Shown here one piece after another: positions 46,421 to 59,925 of a stretch of DNA of 64,000 nt. Source of the stretch: Candidatus Caccoplasma intestinavium (GTDB lineage Bacteria > Bacteroidota > Bacteroidia > Bacteroidales > UBA11471). The notes under the pieces are model-generated. The model worked only from the letters and a program-made list of their open reading frames with translations, searched no databases and was not told the origin of the DNA. Both the position numbers and the translations under genes were made by a program. Location: positions 24,119 through 88,118 of the forward strand of contig DVKT01000022.1 of the NCBI GenBank assembly GCA_018715885.1, given 5' to 3'. How positions within the stretch are numbered: the first letter of the stretch is position 1; every line of letters starts with the position of its first letter.

Positions 46421-48448
46421 TTACCAAATCACAACCCGATCTTCGGGAGCCATATACATAGGCTGTTCGGGTGTAATTCCGAATGCCTGATAGAAAGTTT
46501 CGATATTCCGAAGTGCGGCATTCACACGCCATTTTCCCAATGAATGCGGATCTGTTTTTGTACGACGTAGTATTTCCTCATCTCGAATGTTTGACGCCCA
46601 TAAGTTTGCGTATGCCAAGTAAAAACGCTGCTCGGGAGTAAATCCGTCAATAATAGGCAACTTCTCTCCTTCCGTGGCATTTTCAAAAGCTGTGTATGCG
46701 ACACGTAAACCTCCCTGATCGGCAATATTCTCTCCCAAAGTGAAACGTCCGTCGGCATGTACTGTATCAATAACAATAATGCTACTATACTGATCGGCCA
46801 AAATATCGGCACGGAGATTGAACTGACGCGTATCTTCGGAAGTCCACCAATCACTAAGGTTGCCATCTTTATCGAATTGACGTCCCATATCATCGAAACC
46901 ATGCGTCATTTCATGTCCGATAACAACACCGATAGCTCCGTAATTGACGGCATCATCGGCATCGGCATAAAAGAATGGTGGCTGCAAAATACCTGCTGGA
47001 AAACAGATTTCATTGGTAGTCGGGTTATAATAAGCGTTCACGGTCTGCGGGCTCATATACCATATCGACTTATCGACCTCCTTGCCTACTTTTTCGAGCA
47101 TATAAGCCGTCTCGAATTTAGAGGCGTTTTTAAGATTTTCCCAGTAACTTTTCTCGGGAGATATTTCAAGGGCCGTATAATCGCGCCATTTGTCGGGATA
47201 CCCTATTTTGACCGTTATCGCCGCCAATTTTTCAAGAGCACGAGCTTTGGTTTCTTCGCTCATCCAATCGAGATGTTCGATGTGTTGTTGTAGCGCCTTC
47301 TGCAAATTCGCGACTAATTTCAACATACGATTTTTCGACTCCTGCGGAAAATATTTTTTTACATATATCTCACCCAATGCCTCACTCAAAACAGCATCGG
47401 TTGTTGCAAGCGAACGTTTCCATCGTAACCGGGGTTCTTGTTGACCGGATAAAGTCCGTCCGTAAAAATCGAATTTGGCCTCATAAAACTCATCGCTCAA
47501 ATACGACGCGGCACTATTCAATACCGTAAACGCCATATAGTCTTTTACTTCCTGTAATGAAAGCCGGTTATATAACTTGTCTACTCCATCGATAAATGCC
47601 AATTGTCCGGCATCGATGTATTGTAAGCTATCCACTCCCAACGATGTAAAAAAGCCATTCCAGTCAAAATCTTTTTCTCGCCTCAGAAAATCGGTATACG
47701 ACATTCTATTGTAATTTTTCTGCGGATCCCGTAATTCCACCCGGGTATAAGAAAGGCGAGCCAATTCGGTTTCTATTTTCATAACCGATTGAGCCGCTTT
47801 TCGGGCCGATTCGGGAGAATACCCTGCTAATGTAAACAAGCGCTCTATATATTTTATATAAGATTCCCTCAAAGCGATATTCGTACTATCTGCCGACAAA
47901 TAATAATCACGGTCTCCCATAGCAATACCGCCTTGATTAAGGCTCAACAAATTCACGCTGCTATTCTTGCTATCCGGCCCGACATATACAAAAAAGAACG
48001 GATATACCCCTTCGGCATGAAGCCGACCAATAACAGACGACATATTTTTCATATCCGTAATCCCATTTATCTCTTCCAAATCGGCAACCACGGGTGCAAA
48101 TCCTTCGGCATTGAGGCGTACACTGTCAAGCCCCAAATTGTACAAATCACTTACTTTGGCGGCAATACTTCCATCAATTTGTTTCTTCTCTGATAATTCT
48201 GTAACCAAAGTGTGCATTTGCTCCTCGCACAAATCAGCCAATCGATCGAATGAACCATAACGGCTATATTCGGGTTTCAACGGATTATTGGCAATCCAAC
48301 CACCACAAGCATACTGATAAAAATCGACTCCGGGCGCTACACTCAAATCAAAATTAGACTGGGATAGCGGTTTCTCTTTCTCTTGTTTTCCCGAGCAAGC
48401 CGAAAAAGTCAGTGCTGCCATTAACGATAACATCATTGTTTTTTTCAT
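46421..48448 (-). CDS. M13-family zinc metallopeptidase (PepO/endothelin-converting-enzyme-like) lipoprotein
   Basis: 675 aa. Lipobox LTFSAC, HExxH (VIGHEMTHGFD) and downstream ENIAD. Confidence 0.9.
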   Translation of the reverse strand: MKKTMMLSLMAALTFSACSGKQEKEKPLSQSNFDLSVAPGVDFYQYACGGWIANNPLKPEYSRYGSFDRLADLCEEQMHTLVTELSEKKQIDGSIAAKVSDLYNLGLDSVRLNAEGFAPVVADLEEINGITDMKNMSSVIGRLHAEGVYPFFFVYVGPDSKNSSVNLLSLNQGGIAMGDRDYYLSADSTNIALRESYIKYIERLFTLAGYSPESARKAAQSVMKIETELARLSYTRVELRDPQKNYNRMSYTDFLRREKDFDWNGFFTSLGVDSLQYIDAGQLAFIDGVDKLYNRLSLQEVKDYMAFTVLNSAASYLSDEFYEAKFDFYGRTLSGQQEPRLRWKRSLATTDAVLSEALGEIYVKKYFPQESKNRMLKLVANLQKALQQHIEHLDWMSEETKARALEKLAAITVKIGYPDKWRDYTALEISPEKSYWENLKNASKFETAYMLEKVGKEVDKSIWYMSPQTVNAYYNPTTNEICFPAGILQPPFFYADADDAVNYGAIGVVIGHEMTHGFDDMGRQFDKDGNLSDWWTSEDTRQFNLRADILADQYSSIIVIDTVHADGRFTLGENIADQGGLRVAYTAFENATEGEKLPIIDGFTPEQRFYLAYANLWASNIRDEEILRRTKTDPHSLGKWRVNAALRNIETFYQAFGITPEQPMYMAPEDRVVIW

Positions 48449-48478
48449 AACATCGGTATTTAGTTATTTTGCTTATAT

Positions 48479-50446
48479 TTATTTCTCACTTACAGATACT
48501 TCTTTTCGCATTTTTTCCAGTATATCTGTCTGCTCGACCCATAATTCCGTTAAAGCTTCGGCATCTTTCTTCAAAGTTCCGTGTTTCATACATAAATCTA
48601 TATCGGCCATACCCTCTGGGGTAGCCAGACGAGCTTCGATAGCAGAGATTTCTGTATCAAGTTTTGCCAAACGCTGTTCGGTATCGGCAACAGCACGTTC
48701 CTGACGTTTCAATTTTCTCTGCCACTCTTTACGGGCTTCAAACGACAACTTATTTTCTACGGTAGAAGTCGATGTCTTTTCAGCCGGAATTTGAGATCGA
48801 TCCTGTGATCTCGATTTTACTTCCAACTCTTTTAACGAAGCCATTTTTTTCGCCTCCAAAAAATCATATATCCCGCCTAAATGTTCTCGAACTTTCTGCT
48901 GCCCGAACTCGTACACTTTCGATACCAATCCATCGAGAAATTCCCTATCGTGCGATACGACGATAAGAGTCCCGTCAAAATCTTTCAGAGCCTGTTTCAG
49001 AACATCTTTTGTACGCATATCGAGATGGTTGGTTGGTTCGTCGAGAATCAACAGATTGACAGGTTCGAGCAACAAACGAATCATGGCAAGCCGCGTCTTT
49101 TCTCCTCCTGACAAAACTTTCACCTTTTTTTCCGAAGCCTCTCCACCAAACATAAACGCCCCCAATATATCTCGTATTTTGGTACGAATATCACCGACAG
49201 CCACTCTATCTATCGTATCGAATACCGTTACAGATTCGTCAAGAAGCTGAGCTTGATTCTGCGCAAAATATCCGATTTTCACATTGTGTCCTATTTTCAA
49301 CTCTCCATCATAAGGAATCTCTCCCATGATACATTTTACAAGTGTAGATTTTCCCTCGCCGTTCTTCCCGACAAAAGCGACTTTTTCTCCTCGCTTGATT
49401 GTAAAATCGGCATGTGCAAAAACAACATGGTCGCCATAACTTTTCCCCATATTCTTTGCAATAACAGGGTAATCACCCGACCGAGGAGCCGGAGGAAATC
49501 GTAAACGCAATCGGGAATTGTCTACTTCGTCGACCTCTATGCGTTCTATTTTTTCCAGTTGTTTGATACGCGACTGTACTTGCACCGACTTTGTGGCTTT
49601 ATAACGGAAACGTTCGATAAATGCCTCGGTATCCTGTATCTGCTTCTGCTGATTCTCAAAGGCCCGCTGCTGCTGTTCAAGACGCTCGGCCCGTAACTGC
49701 ACATATTTAGAATAATTCACCCGATAATCGTAAATATGCCCAAGAGAAATTTCGATCGTACGATTGGTTACATTATCGATAAACGCCCGGTCGTGTGAAA
49801 CCAATACAACGGCATTGGCCCTTGTGGAAAGAAACATTTCAAGCCACTGTATCGATTCTATGTCCAAATGGTTAGTAGGCTCGTCGAGCAACAATACATC
49901 GGGGCGTTGCAAAAGCAATTTGGCCAATTCGATACGCATACGCCAGCCGCCACTGAACTCGGAAGTCGATCGGTTAAAATCACTCCGCAAAAAACCAAGT
50001 CCCAATAGCGTTTTTTCTATTTCGGCCTGATAATTACCGTTGCCCGACAGTGCAAGTTGTTCGCTTACCTGAGAAATACGGTCGATCAATTCCTGATACG
50101 AATCACTTTCATAATCGGTACGTTCGGCCAATTCTGTATTCATTTGATCAAGACGTTCCTGCATCTCCTGAATATGAGAAAACGCCAATGCCGCCTCCTC
50201 GGTAACCGTACGGCTATCAGAAAGTTGCATTTGCTGCGGCAAATACCCAATGGTTATATCTTTGGGCATATTTACCGATCCTGCCGACGGTTGTTGAAGC
50301 CCCGCTATGATTTTGAGCATAGTAGACTTGCCGGCACCGTTTTTACCGACCAATGCTATACGGTCTTTTTTATTAATGACATACGTTATCTTATCGAGCA
50401 ATGTAAACCCACCGAATTCTACGGTCAGACCCTCTATTGAAATCAT
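48479..50446 (-). CDS. ABC-F family ATPase (two ABC domains, no TM domain)
   Basis: Two Walker A loops (GKNGAGKST, GKNGEGKST) and two LSGG signatures (FSGGWRMR, LSGGEKTR). Coiled-coil C-terminus. Start taken at MISIEG; 50482 is an alternative. Confidence 0.9.
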   Translation of the reverse strand: MISIEGLTVEFGGFTLLDKITYVINKKDRIALVGKNGAGKSTMLKIIAGLQQPSAGSVNMPKDITIGYLPQQMQLSDSRTVTEEAALAFSHIQEMQERLDQMNTELAERTDYESDSYQELIDRISQVSEQLALSGNGNYQAEIEKTLLGLGFLRSDFNRSTSEFSGGWRMRIELAKLLLQRPDVLLLDEPTNHLDIESIQWLEMFLSTRANAVVLVSHDRAFIDNVTNRTIEISLGHIYDYRVNYSKYVQLRAERLEQQQRAFENQQKQIQDTEAFIERFRYKATKSVQVQSRIKQLEKIERIEVDEVDNSRLRLRFPPAPRSGDYPVIAKNMGKSYGDHVVFAHADFTIKRGEKVAFVGKNGEGKSTLVKCIMGEIPYDGELKIGHNVKIGYFAQNQAQLLDESVTVFDTIDRVAVGDIRTKIRDILGAFMFGGEASEKKVKVLSGGEKTRLAMIRLLLEPVNLLILDEPTNHLDMRTKDVLKQALKDFDGTLIVVSHDREFLDGLVSKVYEFGQQKVREHLGGIYDFLEAKKMASLKELEVKSRSQDRSQIPAEKTSTSTVENKLSFEARKEWQRKLKRQERAVADTEQRLAKLDTEISAIEARLATPEGMADIDLCMKHGTLKKDAEALTELWVEQTDILEKMRKEVSVSEK

Positions 50447-50739
50447 AATAGTCGTGTTCTTAAATTTTGCCTGTTTCCACAATAGGCATTCTCAAAACAC
50501 GGCAAAGGTACACATTTTTACCCGAAGAGCATATATCCGTTTTCGTATTAAAAAAATCAGGGAAGAATCCTTACCAATTTTATGCAAAGTTACAAAAGAC
50601 CTCCGGAGAAAAGCTGCCTCATTCAGCCATTCCTCATACAATACCTTGCACACCATCTGTAAGGCAAAGTTGTAGCGCCATCTCCTCATGCGTCGCCAAC
50701 CCGTACTTTAAGGACACTCTCCCCATATTTAAAAGAGAT

Positions 50740-52683
50740 TTACCACCACTGTTGTATACCGTTTTTATAAATAAAGATCCGTTCTTCTGCCCCTCCGCTC
50801 AAATTATGTAATATATACAATTTTCCTGCCGGAACTTTTTGAAAATCGAGATAATAATCGGTAGCGGTCTTTTCTCCCACACATTGCCAAGAAAAACCGT
50901 CCCAATACTCCAAACGATAATGATTCCCCGGAATAATAAAGTTTGTATCGCTTCGGGGTACATAGCGTATCCGCGTCAATGTGTGATCATTTCTTTCACC
51001 CAAATCAAGTGCTACATACCCTTCTACTTTCTTATCTTTTCTAAAATAGGTACTATAATCACCATCGACAGCTTGTTCCCAACCTGTTTCTATTTCATTC
51101 TCCGGGACGCCAAATGCAAATCCGTTCAAAACCTGTTCTTCTTCCGTACCTTGTTTCCGACCATAAAAAACTATTTCTGCCAAATTACCCTCACGATTAT
51201 CATCAAATTTCATTCGAACATATCTATATGGACGAGTAACATTTAAGATAGAATCGACTATATCTTGTGCATCTCTATCCAAAACAGTCATTACAATTTC
51301 CGAGTCTGAAAAATCTGGATTGTCCGAGACCTCCACTGTTGCTCCTAAAAGAGCCTTCGAAAACGAGGTAATACGTGTAAATTTCGGATATTTACGAGTC
51401 AGATGCATATCGACAAAACCGGACGTATCGGATCGGATATATTCTATTCTGCCTTCCTTGTCGAGAATAAAGGGCGGTGTCGCTGGGACAAAGGTACTCT
51501 CATCGTAATAACCAGCCATATAGCAAACATCGCCTATCATATTTTTGAAATAGAACTTGCCCTCGGACACCTGCCCGTAATCGACCGGCTGCCACTCCTT
51601 GTTATCGAACACGCAGATTACGCCATACGGGAACGATCTATATCTATCAGTAACCTCAGGATCACCGGCAACATCTACATCGAATGTCGGAAAATAAAGA
51701 TGCGATACATCGATCCTATCCGACGCCAATAAATACCCGGGAACATACTCGGCAGCATTTTCATTCACATCTTGTATCTCAAAAGTCTGGCGAAATATTT
51801 TAGCCGGTTTATAGGTAAAAAAATACCGTTTTCTATCCAAGGCATCGAAAGGAAGAAACTGGCCGCTATCTTTCAAAACGACCACCCACTCGTGCCCCTG
51901 ACTACGGTTTCCCCAATGATTGACATAATCTATCGTTGCCGGAATCCCACATGCTCTCAAAGTAAGTACATAATATTCGCTCATGTGCCGGCACGATCCA
52001 CGTCGAGCCTGTTCCACCTTACTCCTCGGCAAAGAGATGGGATATCCCCACATCAATCGGCTATTTTTATACTTACGTACTCTATCGAACTCATGATACA
52101 ACTCCTTGATAAGACGGTCATCGTTGATAATAAGCGAATCTCGGATTCTCCGGAATTGCTCGAAATGCCTTTTACGATACGGTTCCAAAGGTTCATTTCC
52201 TATACGGTACGGCAACACGTACCGGCAAAAAAGGTCGAAATCTCGGGATATGAAATCCGGAACTGTCTGCCACGCCTCAAAAGCCGTCTCTATCTCCTCT
52301 ATCAAAAACTCTGCCGAAACGGTTTCCGTATCATACTGTCGTCCTAAATACAAAGGTTGCAGTCGTCCGTATTTGTGCAACAGATTCCACCAACATTGCT
52401 CGACAAGAGCAGGATCGGATTCGGAATTACCACTCCTATATAATCTTTCATATAGCGAAAATATTGTATCATAGCGTTCTATCTGTTTATCCCTATACCC
52501 AAATTTCCCGGGCATATTTTCTATTAAAAATTCCGCAGCCACCCTCTTCAAAGAATCATTGGCGTAAAAATCCAACACTTTTTCCACCTCATCATTTGGT
52601 AAAACCGGAGCTTCCAATACATTACAGCTCCATAAAATTTGCATCAAAAGCAAAATCGAAAAAATACATCTTGATATACTCAT
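50740..52683 (-). CDS. Transglutaminase-like cysteine-protease-fold lipoprotein with C-terminal discoidin (F5/8 type C)-like domains
   Basis: Signal MSISRCIFSILLLMQILWSC. Cys-His-Asp core (RGSCRHMSEY, GHEWVVV, FDALD). The C-terminal ...NLAEIVFYG is discoidin-like. Start moved from 52743 to 52683. Confidence 0.75.
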   Translation of the reverse strand: MSISRCIFSILLLMQILWSCNVLEAPVLPNDEVEKVLDFYANDSLKRVAAEFLIENMPGKFGYRDKQIERYDTIFSLYERLYRSGNSESDPALVEQCWWNLLHKYGRLQPLYLGRQYDTETVSAEFLIEEIETAFEAWQTVPDFISRDFDLFCRYVLPYRIGNEPLEPYRKRHFEQFRRIRDSLIINDDRLIKELYHEFDRVRKYKNSRLMWGYPISLPRSKVEQARRGSCRHMSEYYVLTLRACGIPATIDYVNHWGNRSQGHEWVVVLKDSGQFLPFDALDRKRYFFTYKPAKIFRQTFEIQDVNENAAEYVPGYLLASDRIDVSHLYFPTFDVDVAGDPEVTDRYRSFPYGVICVFDNKEWQPVDYGQVSEGKFYFKNMIGDVCYMAGYYDESTFVPATPPFILDKEGRIEYIRSDTSGFVDMHLTRKYPKFTRITSFSKALLGATVEVSDNPDFSDSEIVMTVLDRDAQDIVDSILNVTRPYRYVRMKFDDNREGNLAEIVFYGRKQGTEEEQVLNGFAFGVPENEIETGWEQAVDGDYSTYFRKDKKVEGYVALDLGERNDHTLTRIRYVPRSDTNFIIPGNHYRLEYWDGFSWQCVGEKTATDYYLDFQKVPAGKLYILHNLSGGAEERIFIYKNGIQQWW

Positions 52684-52708
52684 ATTCAATTCTCCTTTAA
52701 ACGTACGA

Positions 52709-54715
52709 TCAAATCGCCAATGACTTTTTATACCAAACTTCAAATAAAAAACGATATTGCTTCCATATCAAATCCTCTATATTTTTCTCCTCTGCCGGCT
52801 TATAATCATTTCCTGTAAAAATTCCCTGTGCCGTTACTCTTCCCATACGATTATATTGGTACGCCTTATCTACTAGACCTTTTCTCTCATATATACACGC
52901 CAAGTTAAACCACACTCTCGACAGATTTGGCAATTGTTCATTCGAGCTAAACAAATAAAATTCGGCCGTTTCAAAATCGCCAAGCTGCATAGCAATACTT
53001 CCATATTTAGCCAAATCAATAGGATTAGAAGGCTTCTGCGAAATATGTATCAACAAAAAATTTACAACTCGTTCAGTAAATTCTTTGTCGTAAAACCGAA
53101 GTTTTTCCCAATAGGTCGTTTTTAAAATATTCGGTTCTTGCAATACGACAGAAACAAACATTTCTATTGCTTTATCTACAAATCCTTTCTGCCGATATAT
53201 TTTATATAATTCCCATTTGAAAATAAGTTTATCAGGATAAACTGATATCCATTTTTCCAGTTCTTTTAAAAACGTATTTTCCGCTTCCTTAATGGAATAT
53301 AAGCGCACATAAAATGATAAGTGAATATCCAATGGGCTTTTCTTTAAGGCTTTTTCAAAATAACAAAGAGATCTTTCAACATTTTTATCCCGCAAAAAAA
53401 TTGCTCTGTTGACCATAAAAGAAAAACATTCCTTACTATTCCAGTTATAAAGAACCAGTCCAACCACATATGTCATCACTATACAAGGCAAGAAACAAAG
53501 TATGACTGGAAAATTCTTCTTCTCTCTTTCACATTCTACCCTTTTACTTTGTAAAAAAGCTACAAGGAAAAGGGTTGATAATTGTATAACCTTCGAATCG
53601 AACATTGTCGAAAAGGTCTGCTCCCTAACAAAAAAAGCCATTAAAAACAACGATATTATCCATAATTTCCGTTCTTTTCTCTTTATCAATAAAAAAACAA
53701 TAGACCAACAAAGTATCAAATATATACACACACCACAATAACCATACTCAATAAAAAGTTTTGAAATTGTATTGGGTGCATATGTAGTGTAAGAATCAAC
53801 CCTTTTATCACCAACCTGATAATAATCTTTCGCCAAAGTATAGTTATTCAGACCTACACCCCAAGGATATTTTTTCAAGATATCGGAGGTAATTGACATG
53901 GCCTTTACTCTCCCATCTATACTTCTTTGTTGAGAAACAGTCTTATTTATTTCAAAAACTTTTTTCGTTTCATGAGGAAATAAGAAAAAAATTCCTATTA
54001 TAAAAATAGCACAACTACCCAACAGAAATTTTTCCCGATCTACAAATAATCTCTTTCTTTCCAGTATAAACAAAACAATGGCAAACACCAGTGCCGATAA
54101 ATATATTCCTCTCGAAAATGACAATAACAATTGACACAATACCATACAGCCAGTTATAGCAGCAAGAGCCTTGACTTTTCGATTCTCAACATAAAAATAT
54201 GCGATTGCCAATATGCCCCCGAATAACCATTGTAAACTACTCCATACATTATTGGAAATTCCCAATGGAGCATACAAAAACCTGAAATCATACAACGAAG
54301 AAGAACCCGCATTATGGACAGTCTCGGAAAACAGATAATATATATAGAAAGATATAGTTAACAAAACAAAAATGCATACGGTAAATATAGAAAGAAGGTA
54401 ACCCGCAAATTTTCCATAATAGGTAAAAACATACCTCAAAATAAAGTAAGCAAATATATTTGTTATCAAATAAACGAGCATCACATTAGTATTTATCGTA
54501 TTAACTGATGGTAAAAAAAGCCCGTACGCTCCTAACAAAATAATACAAATATCACAAACACCCACTTTCAAAGGCCGTATAAATATGAATATCATTAAGC
54601 TAAAAACCAATAACAACAATTGTACAAAATACGTATCCTTGATATAAAAAAAATCAGCAAGGAACACAAATGTCAATAAACAGCAACTCGATATGCAAAC
54701 CAACTGTTTCATCAT
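52709..54715 (-). CDS. Polytopic Wzy_C (O-antigen ligase/polymerase-like) membrane protein with a C-terminal TPR-like domain
   Basis: 668 aa with more than 10 hydrophobic segments. Wzy_C-type loop LSFSRGIYLSALVF. The C-terminal ~250 aa are TPR-like helical repeats. ATGA overlap with the upstream gene. Confidence 0.6.
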   Translation of the reverse strand: MMKQLVCISSCCLLTFVFLADFFYIKDTYFVQLLLLVFSLMIFIFIRPLKVGVCDICIILLGAYGLFLPSVNTINTNVMLVYLITNIFAYFILRYVFTYYGKFAGYLLSIFTVCIFVLLTISFYIYYLFSETVHNAGSSSLYDFRFLYAPLGISNNVWSSLQWLFGGILAIAYFYVENRKVKALAAITGCMVLCQLLLSFSRGIYLSALVFAIVLFILERKRLFVDREKFLLGSCAIFIIGIFFLFPHETKKVFEINKTVSQQRSIDGRVKAMSITSDILKKYPWGVGLNNYTLAKDYYQVGDKRVDSYTTYAPNTISKLFIEYGYCGVCIYLILCWSIVFLLIKRKERKLWIISLFLMAFFVREQTFSTMFDSKVIQLSTLFLVAFLQSKRVECEREKKNFPVILCFLPCIVMTYVVGLVLYNWNSKECFSFMVNRAIFLRDKNVERSLCYFEKALKKSPLDIHLSFYVRLYSIKEAENTFLKELEKWISVYPDKLIFKWELYKIYRQKGFVDKAIEMFVSVVLQEPNILKTTYWEKLRFYDKEFTERVVNFLLIHISQKPSNPIDLAKYGSIAMQLGDFETAEFYLFSSNEQLPNLSRVWFNLACIYERKGLVDKAYQYNRMGRVTAQGIFTGNDYKPAEEKNIEDLIWKQYRFLFEVWYKKSLAI

Positions 54716-55920
54716 GATTCTTTATATACACGTATCTTCTTGTAAAATGGATATATGATCCGGTACAACATATAAAATGCCAATACCAAGAATAATAATT
54801 GAAGAACAATTTGTTGTACATTCGACCAGTCCGGAGTTTGGCGATATGACAATTCTCTTATCAATAGACTGAAACGATCAGGAAAAGTTTCATAAAACCG
54901 TACGAAAAACAAAGGTAAAACATAGAAAAAGTAAAATCCAAAAAACAAATTGACTACAACCGTATAAACTACTAATCCAGATTTTGCTCCCCGGGATAAC
55001 GCAAATAAATAGGGTCGATGCTCTACTTTTTTATTCTTTATTTTACTCAAAACATATCCAACCCATTCTGTCCCCTTTTTTCGTAAATTGGCAACCCCCA
55101 AAACATCTGACAAAATCCAATATCCGTCAAATTTGAAAAATGGATTCAATGTAATAACAAAATTCATATTCATCACCACAATTATATATTTGAAAAATGG
55201 GTAATGAAAGAAAAAATAAGCTATAAGAAACGGTATTAATAAAACCATCTGAAAATACACACCACCTATATTGATCAGAAAACGCTCCCTTCGAGTAAGT
55301 TTCCATGCCTGAGAAACATCGGTATAGAAAACAGGAATATTAAGATATAATCCGAAGCCAATATTTCCATGAGGAATCTGAAAATAATGACAAGCTGATG
55401 CATGCCCCAATTCATGTATCAACGACGAAAAAATAAAAAACAGGAATAATCCTATTACTGTATAGATACTCAGATCAACGTGTATAGTTTCAGTATAAAA
55501 TTCTGTAAAATGAATAAAATCCAGAATAATAAATATACCGACAATCGCCATCATCACACGGCTATCGAAAAGTATTTTCAGAGAAGAAGCGCACTTTCTT
55601 ACTTTCTCGGACGAAATCAAATCGTGCCGATAAAGAAATACTCCCTTTTTAGTCGAGGATACCTTTCCCTCCGCAATTTTCGACGACAGCATTTCCAAAA
55701 ATTCGATGACATCGTCTTTCGACGGATGTCCATCATGACTTTCTACATAAGTATCCACTGCCACTTCATCGCAACCATTTTCTTTGAGGTAATTCAGCAA
55801 CTCCGCCGCATCTTTTCCTATTTCAAAGAAATGATTATTAAATTCCATCAAAAAAGTTGTATGCAACGACGAAGTAGAAAAAGGTCCCACTGTTATACGC
55901 ATCAAATCAAAATTATCCAT
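54712..55920 (-). CDS. PqqD-like (RRE-like) N-terminal domain fused to an M50/site-2-protease-like intramembrane metalloprotease
   Basis: 402 aa. HELGH at residues 169-173 within a TM segment and NPFFKFDG at 259-266 (M50 NPxxxxDG). The N-terminal ~85 aa (FFEIGKDAAELLNYLKENG...DDVIEFLEMLSSK) resemble PqqD. Confidence 0.7.
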   Translation of the reverse strand: MDNFDLMRITVGPFSTSSLHTTFLMEFNNHFFEIGKDAAELLNYLKENGCDEVAVDTYVESHDGHPSKDDVIEFLEMLSSKIAEGKVSSTKKGVFLYRHDLISSEKVRKCASSLKILFDSRVMMAIVGIFIILDFIHFTEFYTETIHVDLSIYTVIGLFLFFIFSSLIHELGHASACHYFQIPHGNIGFGLYLNIPVFYTDVSQAWKLTRRERFLINIGGVYFQMVLLIPFLIAYFFFHYPFFKYIIVVMNMNFVITLNPFFKFDGYWILSDVLGVANLRKKGTEWVGYVLSKIKNKKVEHRPYLFALSRGAKSGLVVYTVVVNLFFGFYFFYVLPLFFVRFYETFPDRFSLLIRELSYRQTPDWSNVQQIVLQLLFLVLAFYMLYRIIYPFYKKIRVYKES

Positions 55921-55926
55921 AACCGA

Positions 55927-58239
55927 CTATTCTAGAATTGTTGACTGATTAATATCTTTTATTTCTGTACTATGGAATTTGTGTTTTTTCTTACCAAACG
56001 TAAAACGATAGTTGACCGTCAACTGGAACATATTGTCATAGGTGCGTTCATAACGCATCGCATTGATTTTTGAATATGACAATCTTTCATACCAACCTTT
56101 AAACGTTGTTTTCATAAAAGGACTCAATGTCCTGAATTGGATATTCCAACCTTTTATGGAGTAACCGACATTCAAATCAAAACCTCCCGACGATTGAATT
56201 TTCGTCCCAGATTTTTCTATATAAGAACGTTTAGGGGCATACCCTGCCGAAACCGACCAGCCTTTATGAAAAAAATAACAATCGATTGACACATTATACG
56301 AATCACCATATATCGTTTTCCAATATGCTAACTTTTCATGCTTATAGTTTCCATATACCTCAACCATCAATTTTTGGGGTATAATACTATATTGCAACTG
56401 TAATTCATAACTTTGCGATATAGAATTACCACTACTTCGCTGCTGACAGACAAACATATCTCTGTCAGCAGCGTATTCGATATTGGTATAAGGTGAACGG
56501 TAATCTCCTCCGAATATAAAACCCGCACCCACAAAGAATCGATCTACTACCCAAGTATAAATAGCTCCGGCTTGATATTTTCGCCAATCTTTCAACCCGG
56601 GATTTCCTACGGAAATTTCATAAATATTACGACGGTACTCCGTAGCCGTGAGGTTGGTAATACTGGGCGAAGAACCTGATGTTTCGGCAACTATCTGTAA
56701 CATATGTGTTTTATACATATATGTCATTTGCAATGATGGTACAAACATATGATCGAAATAGGTATCAGCACCTGTTTGGCTGAATGATAAACGTTCTGCT
56801 AATCGCAAACGCAAATTCAAACGATTTTTTACCTTGTAATTATAGGTAAGATATAATTGTGTGTTGCCTCGGTTCAAATATACGTCGGATACCACACCTT
56901 CACGCGCGTTGCGATCGTCGGTGCGGGTAAAGTCCTGATTGGCTTCTACATTAAATGACGAACGATTCTTGAATGTTTTGGTATAATTGATTTTAAACCG
57001 TCCATACCAACTCGATTCGTCGGTTGCATTATCATAGGCCGAAGTTATTACATCATCGATTCGATAAACATACCAACGTTTGTAGTCGTTATTACCATAA
57101 CTGCCATACCAATCCATACGCAAACGCTGGTCGTTTTTCAACGCACATTCATACCAAAACGACAATGCCGGAGACAAACCGGTCGAATGCCGGTTTTCTT
57201 GCATAGTATAGGTTTCGGGGGTATTGCTGAATGTCTGACTATTCCATACATCATTCTCTCTCAAGTTTTGATTCAAACGAAAAGAAGAATAGACACTCTG
57301 TTTTTTATCTTTATATATGTAATTGAAATAAGAACGCAAATTATTACTGTTTTTTTGTGAAGGTAGTTCTTGGGTCGTATTCACATTCGTTCCATCAGGA
57401 AAACCGTAAGCCGTTTCTGTATAATTTTCGCTATTGTAGTTACTAAAACAATCATAGCTGTCGGCCACAGAAAGGGCAAATTCCGACTTCCCTTGAAAAT
57501 ATTGAGCCGTCCCCCGAGCACTACCTGTAGGTTTATTTAAGTTATGCTGACCATTGACTGCAACCGTACCGGCATAGTCCCGCTCTTTCAGTACATAGTC
57601 AAACACAACATCAGCTTTGGGATAGTCGGTATTACCATTGGTATAGAAATCGATTCGCTTGATATCTCGCGGATTCAAATTGTTTACCTCGTCTTCGGTG
57701 GCTTCCCGTCCGTCAATGCAGAACAATATCTCTCGTCCCATATAAGTCGGTTTCTGGTCATATATGCCGATGCTCACACCGGGTATGGTCATTGTTCTCA
57801 ACAAGCTGTTTCGGTCATACACATGACGTAACTGTTCACGAGTAGGGTATATCATCGTTTTTTCAGCAGTGTGCACCGTATGATTACCCGTAACAATAAC
57901 CTCCTGTATGAGTGCAGAACTCCGGCTCAAAGTAATATCGCCAAGCCGCACCAACTTTTCTTCGGTAGGATTCAATATAAGGGTCATCTCTTTATAACCG
58001 AGATAGCCTATTTGCAGACGAAACGCCTGTTTCCCCCCCGATAGTTTCAATCTAAAATCTCCTTTACTGTCAGTTATCATACTAGCAACAAGAAGAGTAT
58101 CGGAAGTAAAACAACATACCGTTGCCCCTATCAGGTCATTCCGCTCACTATCCCGCACATGACCTTCCACCTCGATGGTCTGTGCCATAACAGATGGAAT
58201 AGTTGTAAATATGACGATAAAAAAAACGATATATTTCAT
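55927..58239 (-). CDS. TonB-dependent-receptor-like outer membrane beta-barrel (CarboxypepD_reg + plug-like + barrel)
   Basis: Signal MKYIVFFIVIFTTIPSVMAQ. VEGHVRDSERNDLIGATV...DSKGDFRL is carboxypeptidase-regulatory-like. A plug-like segment is present (LLRTMTIPGVSI...CIDGRE...IKRIDFY). The barrel is aromatic-rich and alternating. The track start at 58263 is an alternative. Confidence 0.8.
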   Translation of the reverse strand: MKYIVFFIVIFTTIPSVMAQTIEVEGHVRDSERNDLIGATVCCFTSDTLLVASMITDSKGDFRLKLSGGKQAFRLQIGYLGYKEMTLILNPTEEKLVRLGDITLSRSSALIQEVIVTGNHTVHTAEKTMIYPTREQLRHVYDRNSLLRTMTIPGVSIGIYDQKPTYMGREILFCIDGREATEDEVNNLNPRDIKRIDFYTNGNTDYPKADVVFDYVLKERDYAGTVAVNGQHNLNKPTGSARGTAQYFQGKSEFALSVADSYDCFSNYNSENYTETAYGFPDGTNVNTTQELPSQKNSNNLRSYFNYIYKDKKQSVYSSFRLNQNLRENDVWNSQTFSNTPETYTMQENRHSTGLSPALSFWYECALKNDQRLRMDWYGSYGNNDYKRWYVYRIDDVITSAYDNATDESSWYGRFKINYTKTFKNRSSFNVEANQDFTRTDDRNAREGVVSDVYLNRGNTQLYLTYNYKVKNRLNLRLRLAERLSFSQTGADTYFDHMFVPSLQMTYMYKTHMLQIVAETSGSSPSITNLTATEYRRNIYEISVGNPGLKDWRKYQAGAIYTWVVDRFFVGAGFIFGGDYRSPYTNIEYAADRDMFVCQQRSSGNSISQSYELQLQYSIIPQKLMVEVYGNYKHEKLAYWKTIYGDSYNVSIDCYFFHKGWSVSAGYAPKRSYIEKSGTKIQSSGGFDLNVGYSIKGWNIQFRTLSPFMKTTFKGWYERLSYSKINAMRYERTYDNMFQLTVNYRFTFGKKKHKFHSTEIKDINQSTILE

Positions 58240-58347
58240 TATATTATCATATAATGTATACAAAAATTGAGGGTAATCAAGATTTATACTGAATATAATA
58301 CCATATATAATTTAAAAATATAGATCTCTCACACCCTCAACTTTTAT

Positions 58348-58569
58348 TTATAAATCAAATTCTTGGCAATATTCTGAACAGTATTGCTTACATTTTCCAT
58401 TACATATACAAATGCATTCATCCGAAGAATCAGAACTATCCATATTCAACAACGCCGCTATTGCTAACGGGTCTGTTTCCAATCGTTGTTCCAGCTCATC
58501 TAAATAAAAAGCTGGCAACTCTTCGTTCAGAGAACGAAGTTCATTTTTCTTCTCTTTCATAATTTTCAT
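58348..58569 (-). CDS. Candidate RiPP precursor peptide: acidic helical leader plus Cys-rich CXXX-repeat core
   Basis: 73 aa. All 6 Cys lie at residues 52, 54, 56, 60, 64 and 68 (CICICNGKCKQYCSEYCQEFDL). The leader is ...PAFYLDELEQRLETDPLAIAALLNMDSSDSSDE. Starts 15 nt after the radical SAM gene stop. Confidence 0.75.
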   Translation of the reverse strand: MKIMKEKKNELRSLNEELPAFYLDELEQRLETDPLAIAALLNMDSSDSSDECICICNGKCKQYCSEYCQEFDL

Positions 58570-58584
58570 TTTTAAGTTAATAAA

Positions 58585-59925
58585 TCAGTTATTTAATTGC
58601 AGATCTGCATACGCTTTATTGACAGCATAACGCACAATATCTTCCATACGAAGACAATGATGTCGTTTCAGATTATGAGCCGGACATCCGCATCCGCATA
58701 ACAAAGCATATTTGCACACGGTACAAGCCTGAATCTCTGATATATGCGCCTTATGCCAATTGTCGAGAGGTTCCTGACTCCAAGAAACACCGCCAGCACT
58801 CGCATAATGACCTATGCAGTGTTCGGGCCGGCCTACGACTTCCCAGCAAGGATAGATATTACCATATGGATCAAAAACAAAGCTTCCAGTCTGCGCTCTA
58901 CAAAAAATAGGATGAAAAGACAGAGGTTTTTTCCTCATAATGGCTTGATAAAGTTTATCAAACACGCCATAATCCTGATATTCAAATTGAGATTTAGAAA
59001 CACTATGCTTTTGAATAAATTCTCGTTGCGTCAAGTAATGATAAGTATTGTCCGTTTCGGATTCAGAATAATCAACCAACAATGCCGAATTCATTGAAAA
59101 AAGCGGATTTTCGACATACTGTAAACGCTCGAAAATCGCTTGTAACTCTTTCAAATCTTCGATATTCTCCCTATCTGTATTAACCCGTACAGAAACCCGA
59201 ACACCTCTCTTCAAAGCCAAACCGATATTATCCAAAATACGGTCGAATGTAGGGAAACCCTGGCAATGTATGCGACGACTATTATGGTGGTCACGAACAC
59301 CATCTACCGTGATTTGCAAAAAAGCGATGCCGTCGGGTGAAAGTAAGTCTTCATAAGCAACCAAATCATAACCATTTGTAATAGCAGAAAATGTAAAACC
59401 TAACCTTTTGCCTCTATCAATAATATAAGATATGATTTTTCTGTTTTGTACTAAAAGAGGTTCCCCTCCATATAATGTAATATTTTTAAAAAAATACTTT
59501 TCGTTAGGTTCTATATAAAAAATTGCTTCAAAAGCTTTATCTACCATCTCAGGAGTAAATACCATTTTATCCCTTCCTACTCCTTTCTCAAAACAATATG
59601 GGCAACGGAAATTACAATCGTAAGTAATGACAAATGTAAAACCTTTTTTCAACAACATATCTCTACGGAATAAAATATCGGCCATGTATGCAACATAATC
59701 ATACTCTTCTTGCTCCGCTTTTTCAGTAATATATCCGCGTTGTATCAATGCAGACCATGTTTTTGCAGAATAAGGAAATTCACTCTCTGTAAACGTATCG
59801 TGACTATTGATAAAAGAAACGATTTTATCATTCACTAAATCAATAGCTCCTGTATAACCGTGAATCAACATATGATCATTACTACCATCGACCTTTACAT
59901 CGGTCATATAAGAAGACTTTCTCAT
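58585..59925 (-). CDS. Radical SAM/SPASM-domain peptide-modifying enzyme (putative maturase of the adjacent peptide)
   Basis: 446 aa. CX3CX2C at C104/C108/C111 (YDCNFRCPYCF). C-terminal auxiliary-cluster Cys pattern (CRAQTGSFVFDPYGNIYPC...C...CTVCKYALLCGCGC). ~95-aa N-terminal extension. Confidence 0.9.
   Translation of the reverse strand: MRKSSYMTDVKVDGSNDHMLIHGYTGAIDLVNDKIVSFINSHDTFTESEFPYSAKTWSALIQRGYITEKAEQEEYDYVAYMADILFRRDMLLKKGFTFVITYDCNFRCPYCFEKGVGRDKMVFTPEMVDKAFEAIFYIEPNEKYFFKNITLYGGEPLLVQNRKIISYIIDRGKRLGFTFSAITNGYDLVAYEDLLSPDGIAFLQITVDGVRDHHNSRRIHCQGFPTFDRILDNIGLALKRGVRVSVRVNTDRENIEDLKELQAIFERLQYVENPLFSMNSALLVDYSESETDNTYHYLTQREFIQKHSVSKSQFEYQDYGVFDKLYQAIMRKKPLSFHPIFCRAQTGSFVFDPYGNIYPCWEVVGRPEHCIGHYASAGGVSWSQEPLDNWHKAHISEIQACTVCKYALLCGCGCPAHNLKRHHCLRMEDIVRYAVNKAYADLQLNN

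What the first reader, a model, noticed from the sequence alone, without database searches (positions are those of the whole stretch)
54712..55920. Fusion of a PqqD-like domain to an M50 (site-2-protease-like) intramembrane metalloprotease inside the operon
Both M50 signatures are present in hydrophobic context: HELGH at residues 169-173 and NPFFKFDG at 259-266. The soluble N-terminal ~85 aa follow the PqqD/RRE pattern (hydrophobic strand, then 'EIGKDAAELLNYLKENG', then 'DDVIEFLEMLSSK').

A leader-binding module tethered to an intramembrane protease would give a one-protein solution for recognising and cleaving the leader at the inner membrane. It could be coupled to translocation, replacing the usual C39-ABC exporter.

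Its stop overlaps the start of the next gene (ATGA), implying translational coupling with the Wzy_C/TPR protein.
Basis: partly seen in the sequence, partly recalled or inferred. Interest (0 to 1): 0.7.

Follow-up and report, generated by a model that had tools for sequence, protein, structure and literature searches.

The report
Leader-binding domain fused to membrane protease
This gene encodes a membrane-embedded zinc protease with a small peptide-recognition domain at its front end, sitting in a gene cluster for a modified cysteine-rich peptide; the design is real but was already described in 2023 for another peptide class, so this is a new, widespread relative, not a new invention.

Summary
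Window 54712-55920 (-) is a 402-aa ORF. HELGH (169-173) and NPFFKFDG (259-266) are invariant in 33 homologues, and a 4-nt ATGA overlap joins it to the Wzy_C/TPR gene.

The membrane part is a site-2-protease-like HExxH...DG metalloprotease. It falls below the Pfam M50 cut-off. Its best matches are the RiPP proteases MpaP (daptide, E 5e-24) and YydH/LiaK (E 3.5e-12), both below their cut-offs.

Residues ~8-88 model as a beta3-alpha3 winged helix. The window protein itself does not hit Pfam PqqD. At family level, however:
- 7 of 31 members hit PqqD (best E 2.8e-5).
- hhalign to true PqqD gives probability 81-85% (P about 1e-5; shuffled controls P 0.2-0.9).
- hhalign to the MpaP N-terminal domain gives 79%.

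By the positive-inside rule, the domain and the active site both face the cytoplasm.

The gene pairs with a CteB-like rSAM/SPASM maturase in 25 of 34 loci across several phyla. The precursors share an 'SLN...ELExRLE' leader and have Cys-rich cores.

Most likely it is an RRE-guided intramembrane leader peptidase. That architecture is already published for daptides (Ren et al. 2023). Coupling to export is suggestive only. Cleavage and binding remain untested.

The parts
54712..55920 (-). Whole gene: 402-aa RRE-like + S2P-like intramembrane metalloprotease
   Evidence: ORF list. 437 homologues of about 400 aa with full-length coverage. AF2 mean pLDDT 86.7.
55657..55920 (-). N-terminal soluble domain (residues 1-88), beta1-beta2-beta3-alpha1-alpha2-alpha3 winged helix, PqqD/RRE-like
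   Evidence: AF2 topology. The best compact Foldseek hits are RRE proteins (McbB, ThcOx, TbiB1, LynD), but all have E>0.5. Family alignment A4 vs PqqD: probability 81-85%, P 7e-6 to 1.2e-5; controls P 0.2-0.9. A4 vs MpaP N-terminus: probability 79%. 7 of 31 family members hit PF05402.
55615..55638 (-). Conserved strand FLYRHDLI (residues 95-102; F95 invariant) between the soluble domain and TM1
   Evidence: It is a strand in the full-length AF2 model but disordered in the isolated N-terminal model, so it probably packs on the membrane domain (inference). F95 is invariant.
54712..55563 (-). Membrane domain (residues 120-402), about 6 TM helices, N-in/C-in
   Evidence: AF2 helices. Family-mean K+R counts per loop are 3.7, 10.2 and 3.6 for inside loops, against 0.4, 0.1 and 1.8 for outside loops. 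NCBIfam daptide_HExxH E 5.3e-24 and YydH/LiaK E 3.5e-12 over residues 122-294.
55402..55416 (-). HELGH zinc-binding/catalytic motif (residues 169-173) near the cytoplasmic end of TM2
   Evidence: Translation. H169, E170 and H173 are invariant.
55123..55146 (-). NPFFKFDG motif (residues 259-266); D265 is the presumed third zinc ligand
   Evidence: Translation. N259, P260, F261, F262, F264, D265 and G266 are invariant. In one distant member (L077) the only Peptidase_M50 match (17.9 bits, below the domain threshold) falls on profile positions 160-195 and covers this motif.
54712..54715 (-). ATGA stop/start overlap with the Wzy_C/TPR gene
   Evidence: Tight juxtaposition is conserved in 41 of 44 loci.
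58348..58569 (-). 73-aa precursor peptide with leader motif SLNEELPAFYLDELEQRLETDPL (nt 58465-58533) and Cys-rich core ECICICNGKCKQYCSEYC
   Evidence: ORF. 36 related precursors share the leader consensus 'n..l.eF.l.eLE.RLETDPL' and have hypervariable Cys-containing cores. The motif recurs in other phyla. No NCBIfam model matches.
58585..59925 (-). rSAM/SPASM peptide maturase (446 aa), CteB-like
   Evidence: Pfam Radical_SAM, NCBIfam SPASM domain, CefB/PapB-type models below cut-off. Best PDB sequence match is CteB 5wgg, E 3.7e-11. Found within 10 kb of the protease homologue in 25 of 34 fully flanked loci.
55927..58263 (-). 778-aa outer-membrane-barrel-type protein with CarboxypepD_reg N-terminal domain, 6 nt upstream of the protease gene
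   Evidence: A homologue is fused in frame to the protease in 5 Prevotella/Segatella loci.
52709..54715 (-). 668-aa Wzy_C (O-antigen-ligase-like) polytopic membrane protein with C-terminal TPR
   Evidence: Pfam Wzy_C E 1.4e-12 plus TPR. Conserved neighbour.
50740..52743 (-). 667-aa transglutaminase-core protein with a lipoprotein-like signal (…LLMQILWSC); a second candidate protease
   Evidence: Pfam Transglut_core E 1.7e-6. Present in 14 of 20 fully flanked Bacteroidota loci.

Best explanation
The gene encodes an RRE-guided intramembrane leader peptidase of a radical-SAM RiPP pathway.

Shown by computation:
- A cytoplasmic, divergent PqqD/RRE-type winged-helix domain (residues ~8-88) is tethered by a short linker to a six-helix, site-2-protease-like zinc metalloprotease.
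- The HExxH (169-173) and Asp (D265 in NPFFKFDG) sit at the cytoplasmic ends of TM2 and TM4.
- The gene is one cistron of a tightly packed operon: rSAM/SPASM maturase, 73-aa precursor, OM barrel, this protease, Wzy_C/TPR protein, transglutaminase-like lipoprotein.

Inferred mechanism:
1. The CteB-like maturase cross-links the Cys-rich core in the cytoplasm.
2. The protease's N-terminal domain docks the conserved leader segment 'SLN...ELExRLETDP'.
3. This presents the downstream peptide to the membrane-embedded active site, which cuts off the leader.
4. By analogy with daptides, where the ELExMEAP motif ends at position -1, the cut would lie shortly after the motif.

More speculative: cleavage at the inner membrane hands the product to the co-translated Wzy_C/TPR protein and the OM barrel for export. 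The transglutaminase-like lipoprotein may trim the remaining 'LxxGGL..' linker outside the cytoplasm.
For: **Motifs and family links**
- Motifs are invariant in 33 homologues.
- NCBIfam links the membrane domain to RiPP intramembrane proteases: daptide_HExxH E 5.3e-24, YydH/LiaK E 3.5e-12.

**N-terminal domain**
- AF2 gives beta3-alpha3 at pLDDT about 85.
- The best compact Foldseek matches are four different RRE proteins (also 5lq4 and 4v1v).
- 7 of 31 family members hit PF05402, best E 2.8e-5. One full-length member scores 22.1 bits against a cut-off of 23.4.
- hhalign of the family against true PqqD: probability 81-85%, P 0.7-1.2e-5, against scores of 6.6-11 for reversed or shuffled controls.
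- hhalign against the MpaP N-terminus: probability 79%, E 1.6e-5.

**Precedent**
- RRE N-terminally fused to an S2P in daptide clusters.
- M50 EpeP, TglG and TmoG process RiPPs. The S2P-clan TmcP removes a leader.

**Topology and context**
- Topology is N-in, with the domain and active site on the same face.
- A homologous rSAM/SPASM lies within 10 kb in 25 of 34 loci, including Ignavibacteriota, Chloroflexota, Acidobacteriota, Myxococcota and a B. cereus plasmid.
- The leader motif is conserved while cores are hypervariable.
- No C39/PCAT is present in the operon. The adjacent ABC protein is a soluble ABC-F.
Against: - The window protein alone does not hit PF05402 at E<=10. An alignment of close relatives only gives no significant hhalign match to PqqD (P 0.11).
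- Foldseek E-values for the RRE hits are 0.8-3 and TM-scores are 0.40-0.50.
- Pfam Peptidase_M50 scores 11.5 bits against a cut-off of 27.2.
- The full-length model did not retrieve mjS2P among the top 50 Foldseek hits. The family profile finds 3b4r only at E 3.9.
- No similarity was found to the rSAM's own N-terminal domain, which presumably binds the same leader.
- The operon has a second candidate protease, the transglutaminase-like protein.
- Some relatives (L003, several proteobacterial loci) have no rSAM within 10 kb.
- No binding or cleavage experiment exists for this family. In the paper text retrieved here, MpaP's role is stated but no assay of it appears.
Confidence: 0.6

Rival explanations
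1. The transglutaminase-like lipoprotein (50740-52743) is the real leader peptidase, acting after export as an extracytoplasmic cysteine protease. The M50-like protein would then do something else: clear free leader or unprocessed precursor from the membrane, confer immunity, or act purely as an export or escort component.
For: - Transglut_core with a Cys motif, plus a lipoprotein-type signal.
- Present in 14 of 20 fully flanked Bacteroidota loci.
- Lasso-peptide leader proteases are transglutaminase-like and RRE-dependent (review).
- Bacteroidales precursors carry an extra conserved 'TDPLxxGGL' stretch between the ELExRLE motif and the core. This could be a second processing site (inference).
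Against: - The transglutaminase-like gene is absent from most non-Bacteroidales loci that still keep the rSAM + protease + 'ELExRLE' precursor trio (only 2 of 14 fully flanked loci have it). It therefore cannot be the general leader peptidase of the family.
- The catalytic motifs of the M50-like protein are invariant, which argues for an active protease.
- Both enzymes could act in sequence, which would fold this rival into the main model.
Confidence: 0.2
2. The N-terminal winged helix is not a leader-recognition element. It is a generic regulatory or gating module, comparable to the PDZ or CBS domains of other site-2 proteases, or a docking site for another protein such as the rSAM. Substrate selection would then be done by the membrane domain.
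For: - Sequence and fold matches to RREs are sub-threshold for the window protein itself.
- Winged helices are common, and weak hits to other wH families appear (DUF4423_like, PKMT_2nd).
- Other S2Ps are known, from established literature, to carry non-RRE soluble domains.
Against: - The family-level match is specifically to PqqD (top family, 7 of 31 members; P about 1e-5 with clean controls) and to the MpaP N-terminal domain that RRE-Finder classed as an RRE.
- The domain faces the cytoplasm, where the precursor is made.
- A strongly conserved leader motif co-occurs with the protease across phyla.
Confidence: 0.15
3. It is a classical regulated-intramembrane-proteolysis site-2 protease. It would cleave an anti-sigma factor or membrane regulator to control expression of the cluster or an envelope stress response.
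For: It has S2P-type motifs and a polytopic membrane core. Weak Peptidase_M50 similarity appears in distant members.
Against: - No sigma or anti-sigma gene lies in the operon or its flanks.
- The closest models are RiPP maturation proteases.
- Co-occurrence is with rSAM maturases and precursors across phyla.
Confidence: 0.05

Closest known systems
MpaP / DapP, the 'RRE-peptidase' of daptide clusters (NCBIfam NF041824; Ren et al. 2023, PMC10036551)
   Same: - Same architecture: N-terminal RRE followed by an intramembrane HExxH...DG site-2-type protease, encoded in a RiPP cluster and proposed to remove the leader.
- The membrane domains are homologous (E 5.3e-24 over residues 126-294; tblastn 28% identity to S. 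virginiae mpaP).
- The N-terminal domains align by hhalign (probability 79%).
- Both leaders carry an 'ELEx...P' motif close to the core.
   Different: - It scores 85 bits against a cut-off of 300, so it is not an MpaP equivalog.
- None of the partner enzymes mpaB/C/D/M is present; the maturase is an rSAM/SPASM.
- The host is Gram-negative Bacteroidota, with OM-barrel, Wzy_C/TPR and transglutaminase-like partners instead of ABC transporters.
- MpaP in S. virginiae is 543 aa with a C-terminal extension.
EpeP / YydH / LiaK epipeptide M50 protease (NCBIfam NF058609)
   Same: - Intramembrane HExxH metalloprotease paired with a radical SAM peptide-modifying enzyme.
- Thought to both cleave and export the peptide (review).
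- Homologous core (E 3.5e-12).
   Different: - It scores 46.5 bits against a cut-off of 225.
- The YydH/LiaK profile is only 246 positions, with about 57 before the region matched here. That leaves no room for an RRE-sized N-terminal domain (inference).
- The partner rSAM there is an epimerase, not a SPASM cross-linker.
Canonical site-2 proteases (Pfam PF02163 Peptidase_M50; mjS2P 3B4R, RseP, SpoIVFB)
   Same: HExxH in a membrane helix, a distal Asp in an N/P...DG motif, a beta-hairpin after the HExxH helix, and a polytopic core.
   Different: - Below the Pfam threshold (11.5 bits).
- The motif is NPxxxxDG, not NxxPxxxxDG.
- The soluble domain is RRE-like, not PDZ or CBS.
- The presumed substrate is a soluble cytoplasmic peptide, not a membrane-anchored regulator.
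Lasso-peptide B proteins (B1 RRE + B2 transglutaminase-like protease, split or fused)
   Same: An RRE is tethered to or partnered with the leader protease, so recognition and cleavage are coupled. This operon also holds a transglutaminase-core protein.
   Different: The protease class differs (Cys vs zinc), B proteins are soluble, and there is no membrane embedding.
TmcP (DUF3267, S2P clan) of TMcin clusters and TglG/TmoG M50 proteases of pearlins
   Same: S2P-clan intramembrane metalloproteases with experimentally shown RiPP-processing roles.
   Different: None has a described N-terminal RRE. TmcP has four TM helices and a membrane-integrated substrate. TglG and TmoG act as carboxypeptidases.
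PCAT (C39 peptidase-ABC exporter) systems, common in Bacteroidales RiPP clusters
   Same: Same functional niche: leader removal at the inner membrane, coupled to export.
   Different: There is no ATPase, no C39 domain and no GG motif in the leader here. Coupling to export is not demonstrated.

Membership tests
PqqD / RiPP recognition element (Pfam PF05402; RRE as defined by profile similarity to PqqD) | Significant match of the protein itself to the PF05402 HMM | tested here: not met
   There is no PqqD hit at E<=10 for the window's N-terminal 100-121 residues, nor for 29 close relatives.
PqqD / RiPP recognition element (Pfam PF05402; RRE as defined by profile similarity to PqqD) | Profile-profile (HH-type) similarity of the domain family to PqqD | tested here: met
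   - A4 (window + 30 distant members) vs the true-PqqD alignment A3: probability 81-85%, P 0.7-1.2e-5, window residues 17-62.
- Reversed and 20 shuffled controls give P 0.2-0.9.
- 7 of 31 members hit PF05402 directly, best E 2.8e-5.
- With close relatives only, the match is not significant (P 0.11).
PqqD / RiPP recognition element (Pfam PF05402; RRE as defined by profile similarity to PqqD) | Winged helix-turn-helix fold: three strands followed by three helices | tested here: met
   Two AF2 models give E10-14, E22-27, E30-35, H36-48, H52-61, H68-87 at pLDDT about 81-87.
PqqD / RiPP recognition element (Pfam PF05402; RRE as defined by profile similarity to PqqD) | Significant structural similarity to solved RREs | tested here: inconclusive
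   The best compact Foldseek hits are McbB 6gri, ThcOx 5lq4, TbiB1 5v1u (target-normalised TM 0.50) and LynD 4v1u (query-normalised TM 0.46). All have E 0.8-2.9 and probability 0.23-0.41.
PqqD / RiPP recognition element (Pfam PF05402; RRE as defined by profile similarity to PqqD) | Binds the precursor's leader peptide | not testable with these tools
   This needs a binding assay or a complex prediction.
Peptidase M50 / site-2 protease (Pfam PF02163, MEROPS clan MM) | HExxH within a transmembrane helix | tested here: met
   HELGH 169-173 lies in helix 152-179. H169, E170 and H173 are invariant.
Peptidase M50 / site-2 protease (Pfam PF02163, MEROPS clan MM) | Distal Asp ligand in an N..P....DG-type motif at a second membrane helix | tested here: met
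   - NPFFKFDG 259-266 is invariant at N, P, D and G.
- The spacing is a variant, NP rather than NxxP.
- In one distant member (L077) the only Peptidase_M50 match (17.9 bits, below the domain threshold) falls on profile positions 160-195 and covers this motif.
Peptidase M50 / site-2 protease (Pfam PF02163, MEROPS clan MM) | Score above the Pfam gathering threshold | tested here: not met
   The window protein scores 11.5 bits (E 0.19) against 27.2. Distant members score 17-24.6 bits.
Peptidase M50 / site-2 protease (Pfam PF02163, MEROPS clan MM) | Fold similarity to a solved S2P (3B4R) | tested here: inconclusive
   - 3B4R is not among the top 50 Foldseek hits of the full-length model; no hit has E<0.5.
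- The family profile finds 3b4r_A at E 3.9, in the right register (125-269 vs 10-153).
Daptide intramembrane metalloprotease MpaP (NCBIfam NF041824, equivalog) | Score above the curated cut-off (300 bits) | tested here: not met
   It scores 85 bits, E 5.3e-24, over the membrane core only.
Daptide intramembrane metalloprotease MpaP (NCBIfam NF041824, equivalog) | Cluster contains mpaB/C/D/M and a Thr-terminated daptide precursor | tested here: not met
   The operon holds an rSAM/SPASM, a Cys-rich precursor ending in ...EFDL, an OM barrel, Wzy_C/TPR and a TGase-like protein. Compare the real daptide locus L084.
YydH/LiaK epipeptide maturation metalloprotease (NCBIfam NF058609, equivalog) | Score above the curated cut-off (225 bits) | tested here: not met
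   It scores 46.5 bits, E 3.5e-12.

The most novel reading that the evidence does not exclude
In Bacteroidota, the RRE-protease, the translationally coupled Wzy_C/TPR membrane protein and the OM barrel form an ATP-independent, trans-envelope 'cleave-and-export' conduit for radical-SAM cross-linked Cys-rich peptides. This conduit would take the place of the PCAT/ABC route. The transglutaminase-like lipoprotein would do a second, extracytoplasmic trimming step. The cross-phylum 'SLN...ELExRLE' precursors, together with the CteB-like maturase and the RRE-protease, would then define an uncurated, widespread RiPP family.
Probability: 0.2. Interest if true: 0.7.

Novelty: new member of a known kind. 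Interest (0 to 1): 0.42.

Why it matters
- **Family size:** it extends the RRE-fused intramembrane leader peptidase from Gram-positive daptide clusters to a large, cross-phylum family. That family has 437 clusters at 90% identity and more than 560 genome loci, many from gut and rumen Bacteroidales, paired with radical-SAM/SPASM maturases.
- **Mining handle:** the protease, the maturase and a sharply conserved 'SLN...ELExRLE' leader, which matches no NCBIfam model, form a ready three-part signature for an uncharacterised set of Cys-rich peptides in Prevotella, Phocaeicola and Bacteroides.
- **Export question:** gene fusions of the protease to HlyD or to the OM barrel in relatives, and the conserved overlap with Wzy_C/TPR, make it testable how Gram-negative bacteria export such peptides without a PCAT.
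- **Limit:** the architecture itself is not a surprise to RiPP specialists.

Tried and rejected
- **HMMER, N-terminal domain vs Pfam:** no PqqD hit, either alone or as 29 close relatives.
- **HMMER, N-terminal profile vs PDB sequences:** only designed helical repeats and EF-hand noise.
- **hhalign, close-relative alignment A2 vs PqqD:** P 0.11. Vs the N-terminal domain of the cluster's own rSAM: P 0.12. The broader A4 vs the rSAM N-terminus: P 0.04. All not significant. I dropped the idea that the two leader-binding domains are recent duplicates.
- **Foldseek, full-length model vs PDB:** dominated by P450 and channel noise, with no S2P.
- **Family profile vs PDB:** mjS2P only at E 3.9.
- **PqqD homologue search:** returned only near-identical enterobacterial PqqDs. 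I added the two PDB PqqD sequences to widen the comparator.
- **N-terminal profile vs 1.84 billion representatives:** 207 hits, all at the N-terminus, the full-length ones about 380-450 aa and the shorter ones probably truncated gene calls. No unambiguous stand-alone copy and no other fusion partner was seen at HMMER sensitivity.
- **Promoter/terminator scan of the operon:** nothing above shuffle expectation.
- **Literature searches:** none found a description of this Bacteroidales cassette. The Bacteroidales RiPP survey discusses PCAT/GG systems only.
- **Adjacent ABC protein (48479-50482):** rejected as an exporter. It is a soluble ABC-F.

Full report
**1. The observation**

Window 54712-55920 on the minus strand is a 402-aa ORF. 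Direct translation places HELGH at residues 169-173 and NPFFKFDG at 259-266. The stop codon shares ATGA with the start of the next gene.

The gene lies in a tightly packed minus-strand operon:

| Gene | Coordinates | Size |
|---|---|---|
| rSAM/SPASM maturase | 58585-59925 | 446 aa |
| Cys-rich precursor | 58348-58569 | 73 aa |
| CarboxypepD_reg/OM-barrel protein | 55927-58263 | 778 aa |
| This gene | 54712-55920 | 402 aa |
| Wzy_C + TPR membrane protein | 52709-54715 | 668 aa |
| Transglutaminase-core lipoprotein | 50740-52743 | 667 aa |

The gaps between successive genes are 15, 84, 6, -4 and -35 nt.

A search of 5.8 billion proteins found 437 homologues. The listed ones are mostly about 400 aa and cover 95-100% of the query. 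In an alignment of 33 of them (37-70% identity), H169, E170, H173, N259, P260, D265 and G266 are invariant. The motifs are therefore real and under selection.

**2. The membrane domain**

- Pfam gives no significant hit. Peptidase_M50 scores 11.5 bits (E 0.19) against a gathering score of 27.2.
- NCBIfam matches residues 126-294 to the daptide intramembrane metalloprotease model (NF041824, E 5.3e-24, 85 bits, cut-off 300).
- NCBIfam also matches residues 122-281 to the YydH/LiaK epipeptide protease model (NF058609, E 3.5e-12, 46.5 bits, cut-off 225).
- Distant members of the family reach 17-24.6 bits on Peptidase_M50.
- AF2 (mean pLDDT 86.7) gives about six membrane helices and a beta-hairpin (187-200) after the HExxH helix.
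- Foldseek with the whole model found nothing significant and no S2P in the top 50. The family profile sees mjS2P 3B4R only at E 3.9, though in the expected register.

I therefore call it an S2P-like HExxH...DG intramembrane metalloprotease of the RiPP-associated MpaP/YydH branch. It is not a Pfam-grade M50 member.

**3. The N-terminal domain**

*Fold.* Both AF2 models (full length, and residues 1-100 alone) give strands 10-14, 22-27 and 30-35, followed by helices 36-48, 52-61 and 68-87. This is the beta3-alpha3 winged helix of PqqD/RREs.

*Sequence methods on close relatives failed:*
- No PF05402 hit for the window protein or for 29 close relatives.
- No RRE in a profile search of PDB sequences.
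- hhalign of the close-relative alignment to true PqqD gave P 0.11.

*Foldseek on the isolated domain* gave no significant hit. However, its best compact alignments (70-79 columns, TM 0.40-0.50, probability 0.23-0.41) were to four different RRE-containing proteins: McbB, ThcOx, TbiB1 in complex with its leader, and LynD.

*The decisive step was widening the family.* A scan of one genome per species found more than 560 loci, reaching Ignavibacteriota, Chloroflexota, Acidobacteriota, Myxococcota and Proteobacteria. The matches start at query residues 8-23, so they include the N-terminal domain. With the window protein aligned to 30 such members (A4):
- PqqD became the top Pfam family: 7 of 31 members, best E 2.8e-5. 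One full-length member scores 22.1 bits against a cut-off of 23.4.
- hhalign to true PqqD gave probability 81-85% and P 0.7-1.2e-5 over window residues 17-62.
- A reversed PqqD alignment and 20 column-shuffled PqqD alignments scored 6.6-11 (P 0.2-0.9), against 32.7 for the real one.
- The same alignment matches the N-terminal region of a bona fide daptide protease (S. virginiae mpaP) with probability 79%, E 1.6e-5, window residues 17-76.

The domain is thus a divergent PqqD/RRE-type winged helix. This is shown at family level and inferred for the window protein through full-length homology.

**4. Topology**

Family-mean K+R counts per loop:

| Loop | K+R | Predicted side |
|---|---|---|
| 142-151 | 0.4 | outside |
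| 177-211 | 3.7 | inside |
| 239-240 | 0.1 | outside |
| 259-312 | 10.2 | inside |
| 338-367 | 1.8 | outside |
| C-terminus | 3.6 | inside |

By the positive-inside rule the protein is N-in and C-in. The RRE-like domain is cytoplasmic, and HExxH and D265 sit at the cytoplasmic ends of TM2 and TM4. Recognition domain, active site, ribosome and rSAM maturase are all on the same side. This is an inference from the rule, not a measurement.

**5. Context and substrate**

- Among 34 related loci with at least 6 kb on both sides, 25 carry a homologue of the window's rSAM/SPASM within 10 kb. That is 18 of 20 in the closer, mostly Bacteroidales set and 7 of 14 elsewhere.
- The rSAM is CteB-like (5wgg, E 3.7e-11).
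- Thirty-six precursors from these loci share the leader consensus 'n..l.eF.l.eLE.RLETDPL', followed by hypervariable Cys-containing cores.
- Outside Bacteroidales the same '(S/P)LN...ELExR(L/I)E' leader sits next to rSAM + protease pairs in Elizabethkingia, Balneola, Ignavibacteria, Anaerolineae, Sulfidibacter and Kofleriaceae. There the first Cys often comes only 4-10 residues after the motif.
- None of these precursors matches an NCBIfam model.
- In daptides the conserved leader motif ELExMEAP ends at position -1. By analogy the cut here would lie shortly after the motif. This is inference only.
- The OM barrel, Wzy_C/TPR and transglutaminase-like genes are mostly Bacteroidales additions.

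**6. What is already known**

- Ren et al. [quoted passage not shown] They list an 'RRE-peptidase' class and describe MpaP as an 'RRE-dependent intramembrane peptidase'.
- M50 proteases act in epipeptide (EpeP, thought to cleave and export) and pearlin (TglG, TmoG) pathways.
- An S2P-clan DUF3267 protease removes the TMcin leader.
- RRE-protease coupling is also the rule in lasso peptides.

What I could not find described is this particular family and cassette. The Bacteroidales RiPP survey covers PCAT/GG systems only, and the other searches were empty.

**7. Export coupling**

For:
- The operon has no C39/ABC exporter, and the neighbouring ABC protein is a soluble ABC-F.
- The protease gene's stop and the Wzy_C start overlap or nearly abut in 41 of 44 loci.
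- In five Prevotella/Segatella genomes the protease ORF continues in frame into a homologue of the OM barrel.
- In Azospirillum the homologous N-terminal + protease module is fused to a HlyD adaptor next to TolC.

Against:
- The B. cereus relative and the daptide clusters sit next to ABC transporters.
- Nothing shows that the protease itself translocates peptide.

I rate this as a lead with probability about 0.2.

**8. Verdict**

- The architecture is supported.
- The leader-peptidase role is the best explanation (confidence about 0.6) but is untested.
- The main rival is a division of labour with, or replacement by, the transglutaminase-like lipoprotein.
- Novelty: a new member of a known kind (RRE-fused S2P-type RiPP leader peptidase), embedded in a cassette that may be a new variant.
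- Interest is moderate. It is a good genome-mining and export-mechanism lead in gut Bacteroidales, not a conceptual surprise.

Noticed in passing
L041:3142-6426, L043:9968-13252, L046:9968-13249, L047:2552-5836, L050:9968-13252: In five Prevotella/Segatella genomes the protease homologue is a 1093-1094-aa ORF. It continues in frame, through a signal-peptide-like stretch (…KKxMAAVAxLFAVVPNAGAQQ…), into a homologue of the window's OM-barrel protein (20% identity over 670 aa, E 3e-16). This is either a real fusion or a lost stop codon, conserved across species.
   Followed up: partly
L085:6908-9109 (Azospirillum brasilense plasmid NZ_CP012916.1): A 733-aa protein annotated as a HlyD adaptor has an N-terminal ~300 aa that matches the window protein from residue 5 to 283 (RRE-like + HExxH...DG). 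It lies next to a TolC-family gene and two more adaptor genes, with no rSAM annotated in the 7-kb flanks. Thirteen of the matching plasmid records are from Azospirillum.
   Followed up: partly
L086:3715-11398 (Bacillus cereus plasmid CP046512.1): A Gram-positive version of the cassette: a candidate Cys-rich precursor (MENKSFKIRSVNEND…CFNCSICCDNCCFNCCFQV), two rSAM/SPASM genes, a 413-aa protease homologue with the same N-terminal pattern, then an ABC ATPase and an FtsX-like permease.
   Followed up: partly
window 58465-58533; L051:9646-9879, L061:7412-7678, L068:5653-5895, L058:1667-1873, L039:2830-3000 and others: A cross-phylum precursor family has the leader '(S/P)LN…ELExR(L/I)E' and hypervariable Cys-rich cores, always beside the rSAM + protease pair. 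No NCBIfam model matches it. Bacteroidales members carry an extra conserved 'TDPLxxGGL' stretch after the motif.
   Followed up: partly
L003:5502-13196 and L001:2765-5887: Related loci carry a TPR protein and a DUF3244 protein upstream. L003 keeps the OM barrel-protease-Wzy_C triad with DUF3244 but has no rSAM within 10 kb. The triad may therefore also serve another substrate.
   Followed up: no
L063, L064, L074, L076, L078-L080 (Massilia, Janthinobacterium, Duganella, other Betaproteobacteria); L066, L067, L069 (Pyrinomonadaceae): These homologues have the same N-terminal pattern but no homologous rSAM within 10 kb. L074 is 708 aa with an unexplained C-terminal extension. Their partner enzymes and substrates are unknown.
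   Followed up: no
window 52709-52743: The Wzy_C/TPR gene and the transglutaminase-like gene overlap by 35 nt as called from the first start codon (TTG). The real start of the downstream gene may be the later ATG just before the lipoprotein-like signal (MSISRCIFSILLLMQILWSC).
   Followed up: no
window 55615-55638 (residues 95-102): The segment FLYRHDLI, with invariant F95, is a beta-strand only in the full-length model and is disordered in the isolated N-terminal model. It probably packs against the membrane domain's hairpin (187-200). No coordinates were available to check.
   Followed up: no
window 46421-50482: Downstream on the same strand lie an M13 (neprilysin-like, HEMTH) lipoprotein peptidase (assigned by eye from the HEMTH motif in the translation, not scanned) and an ABC-F ATPase (two ABC_tran + ABC_tran_Xtn, no membrane domain). 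These are ordinary housekeeping genes, not part of the cassette in related loci.
   Followed up: partly
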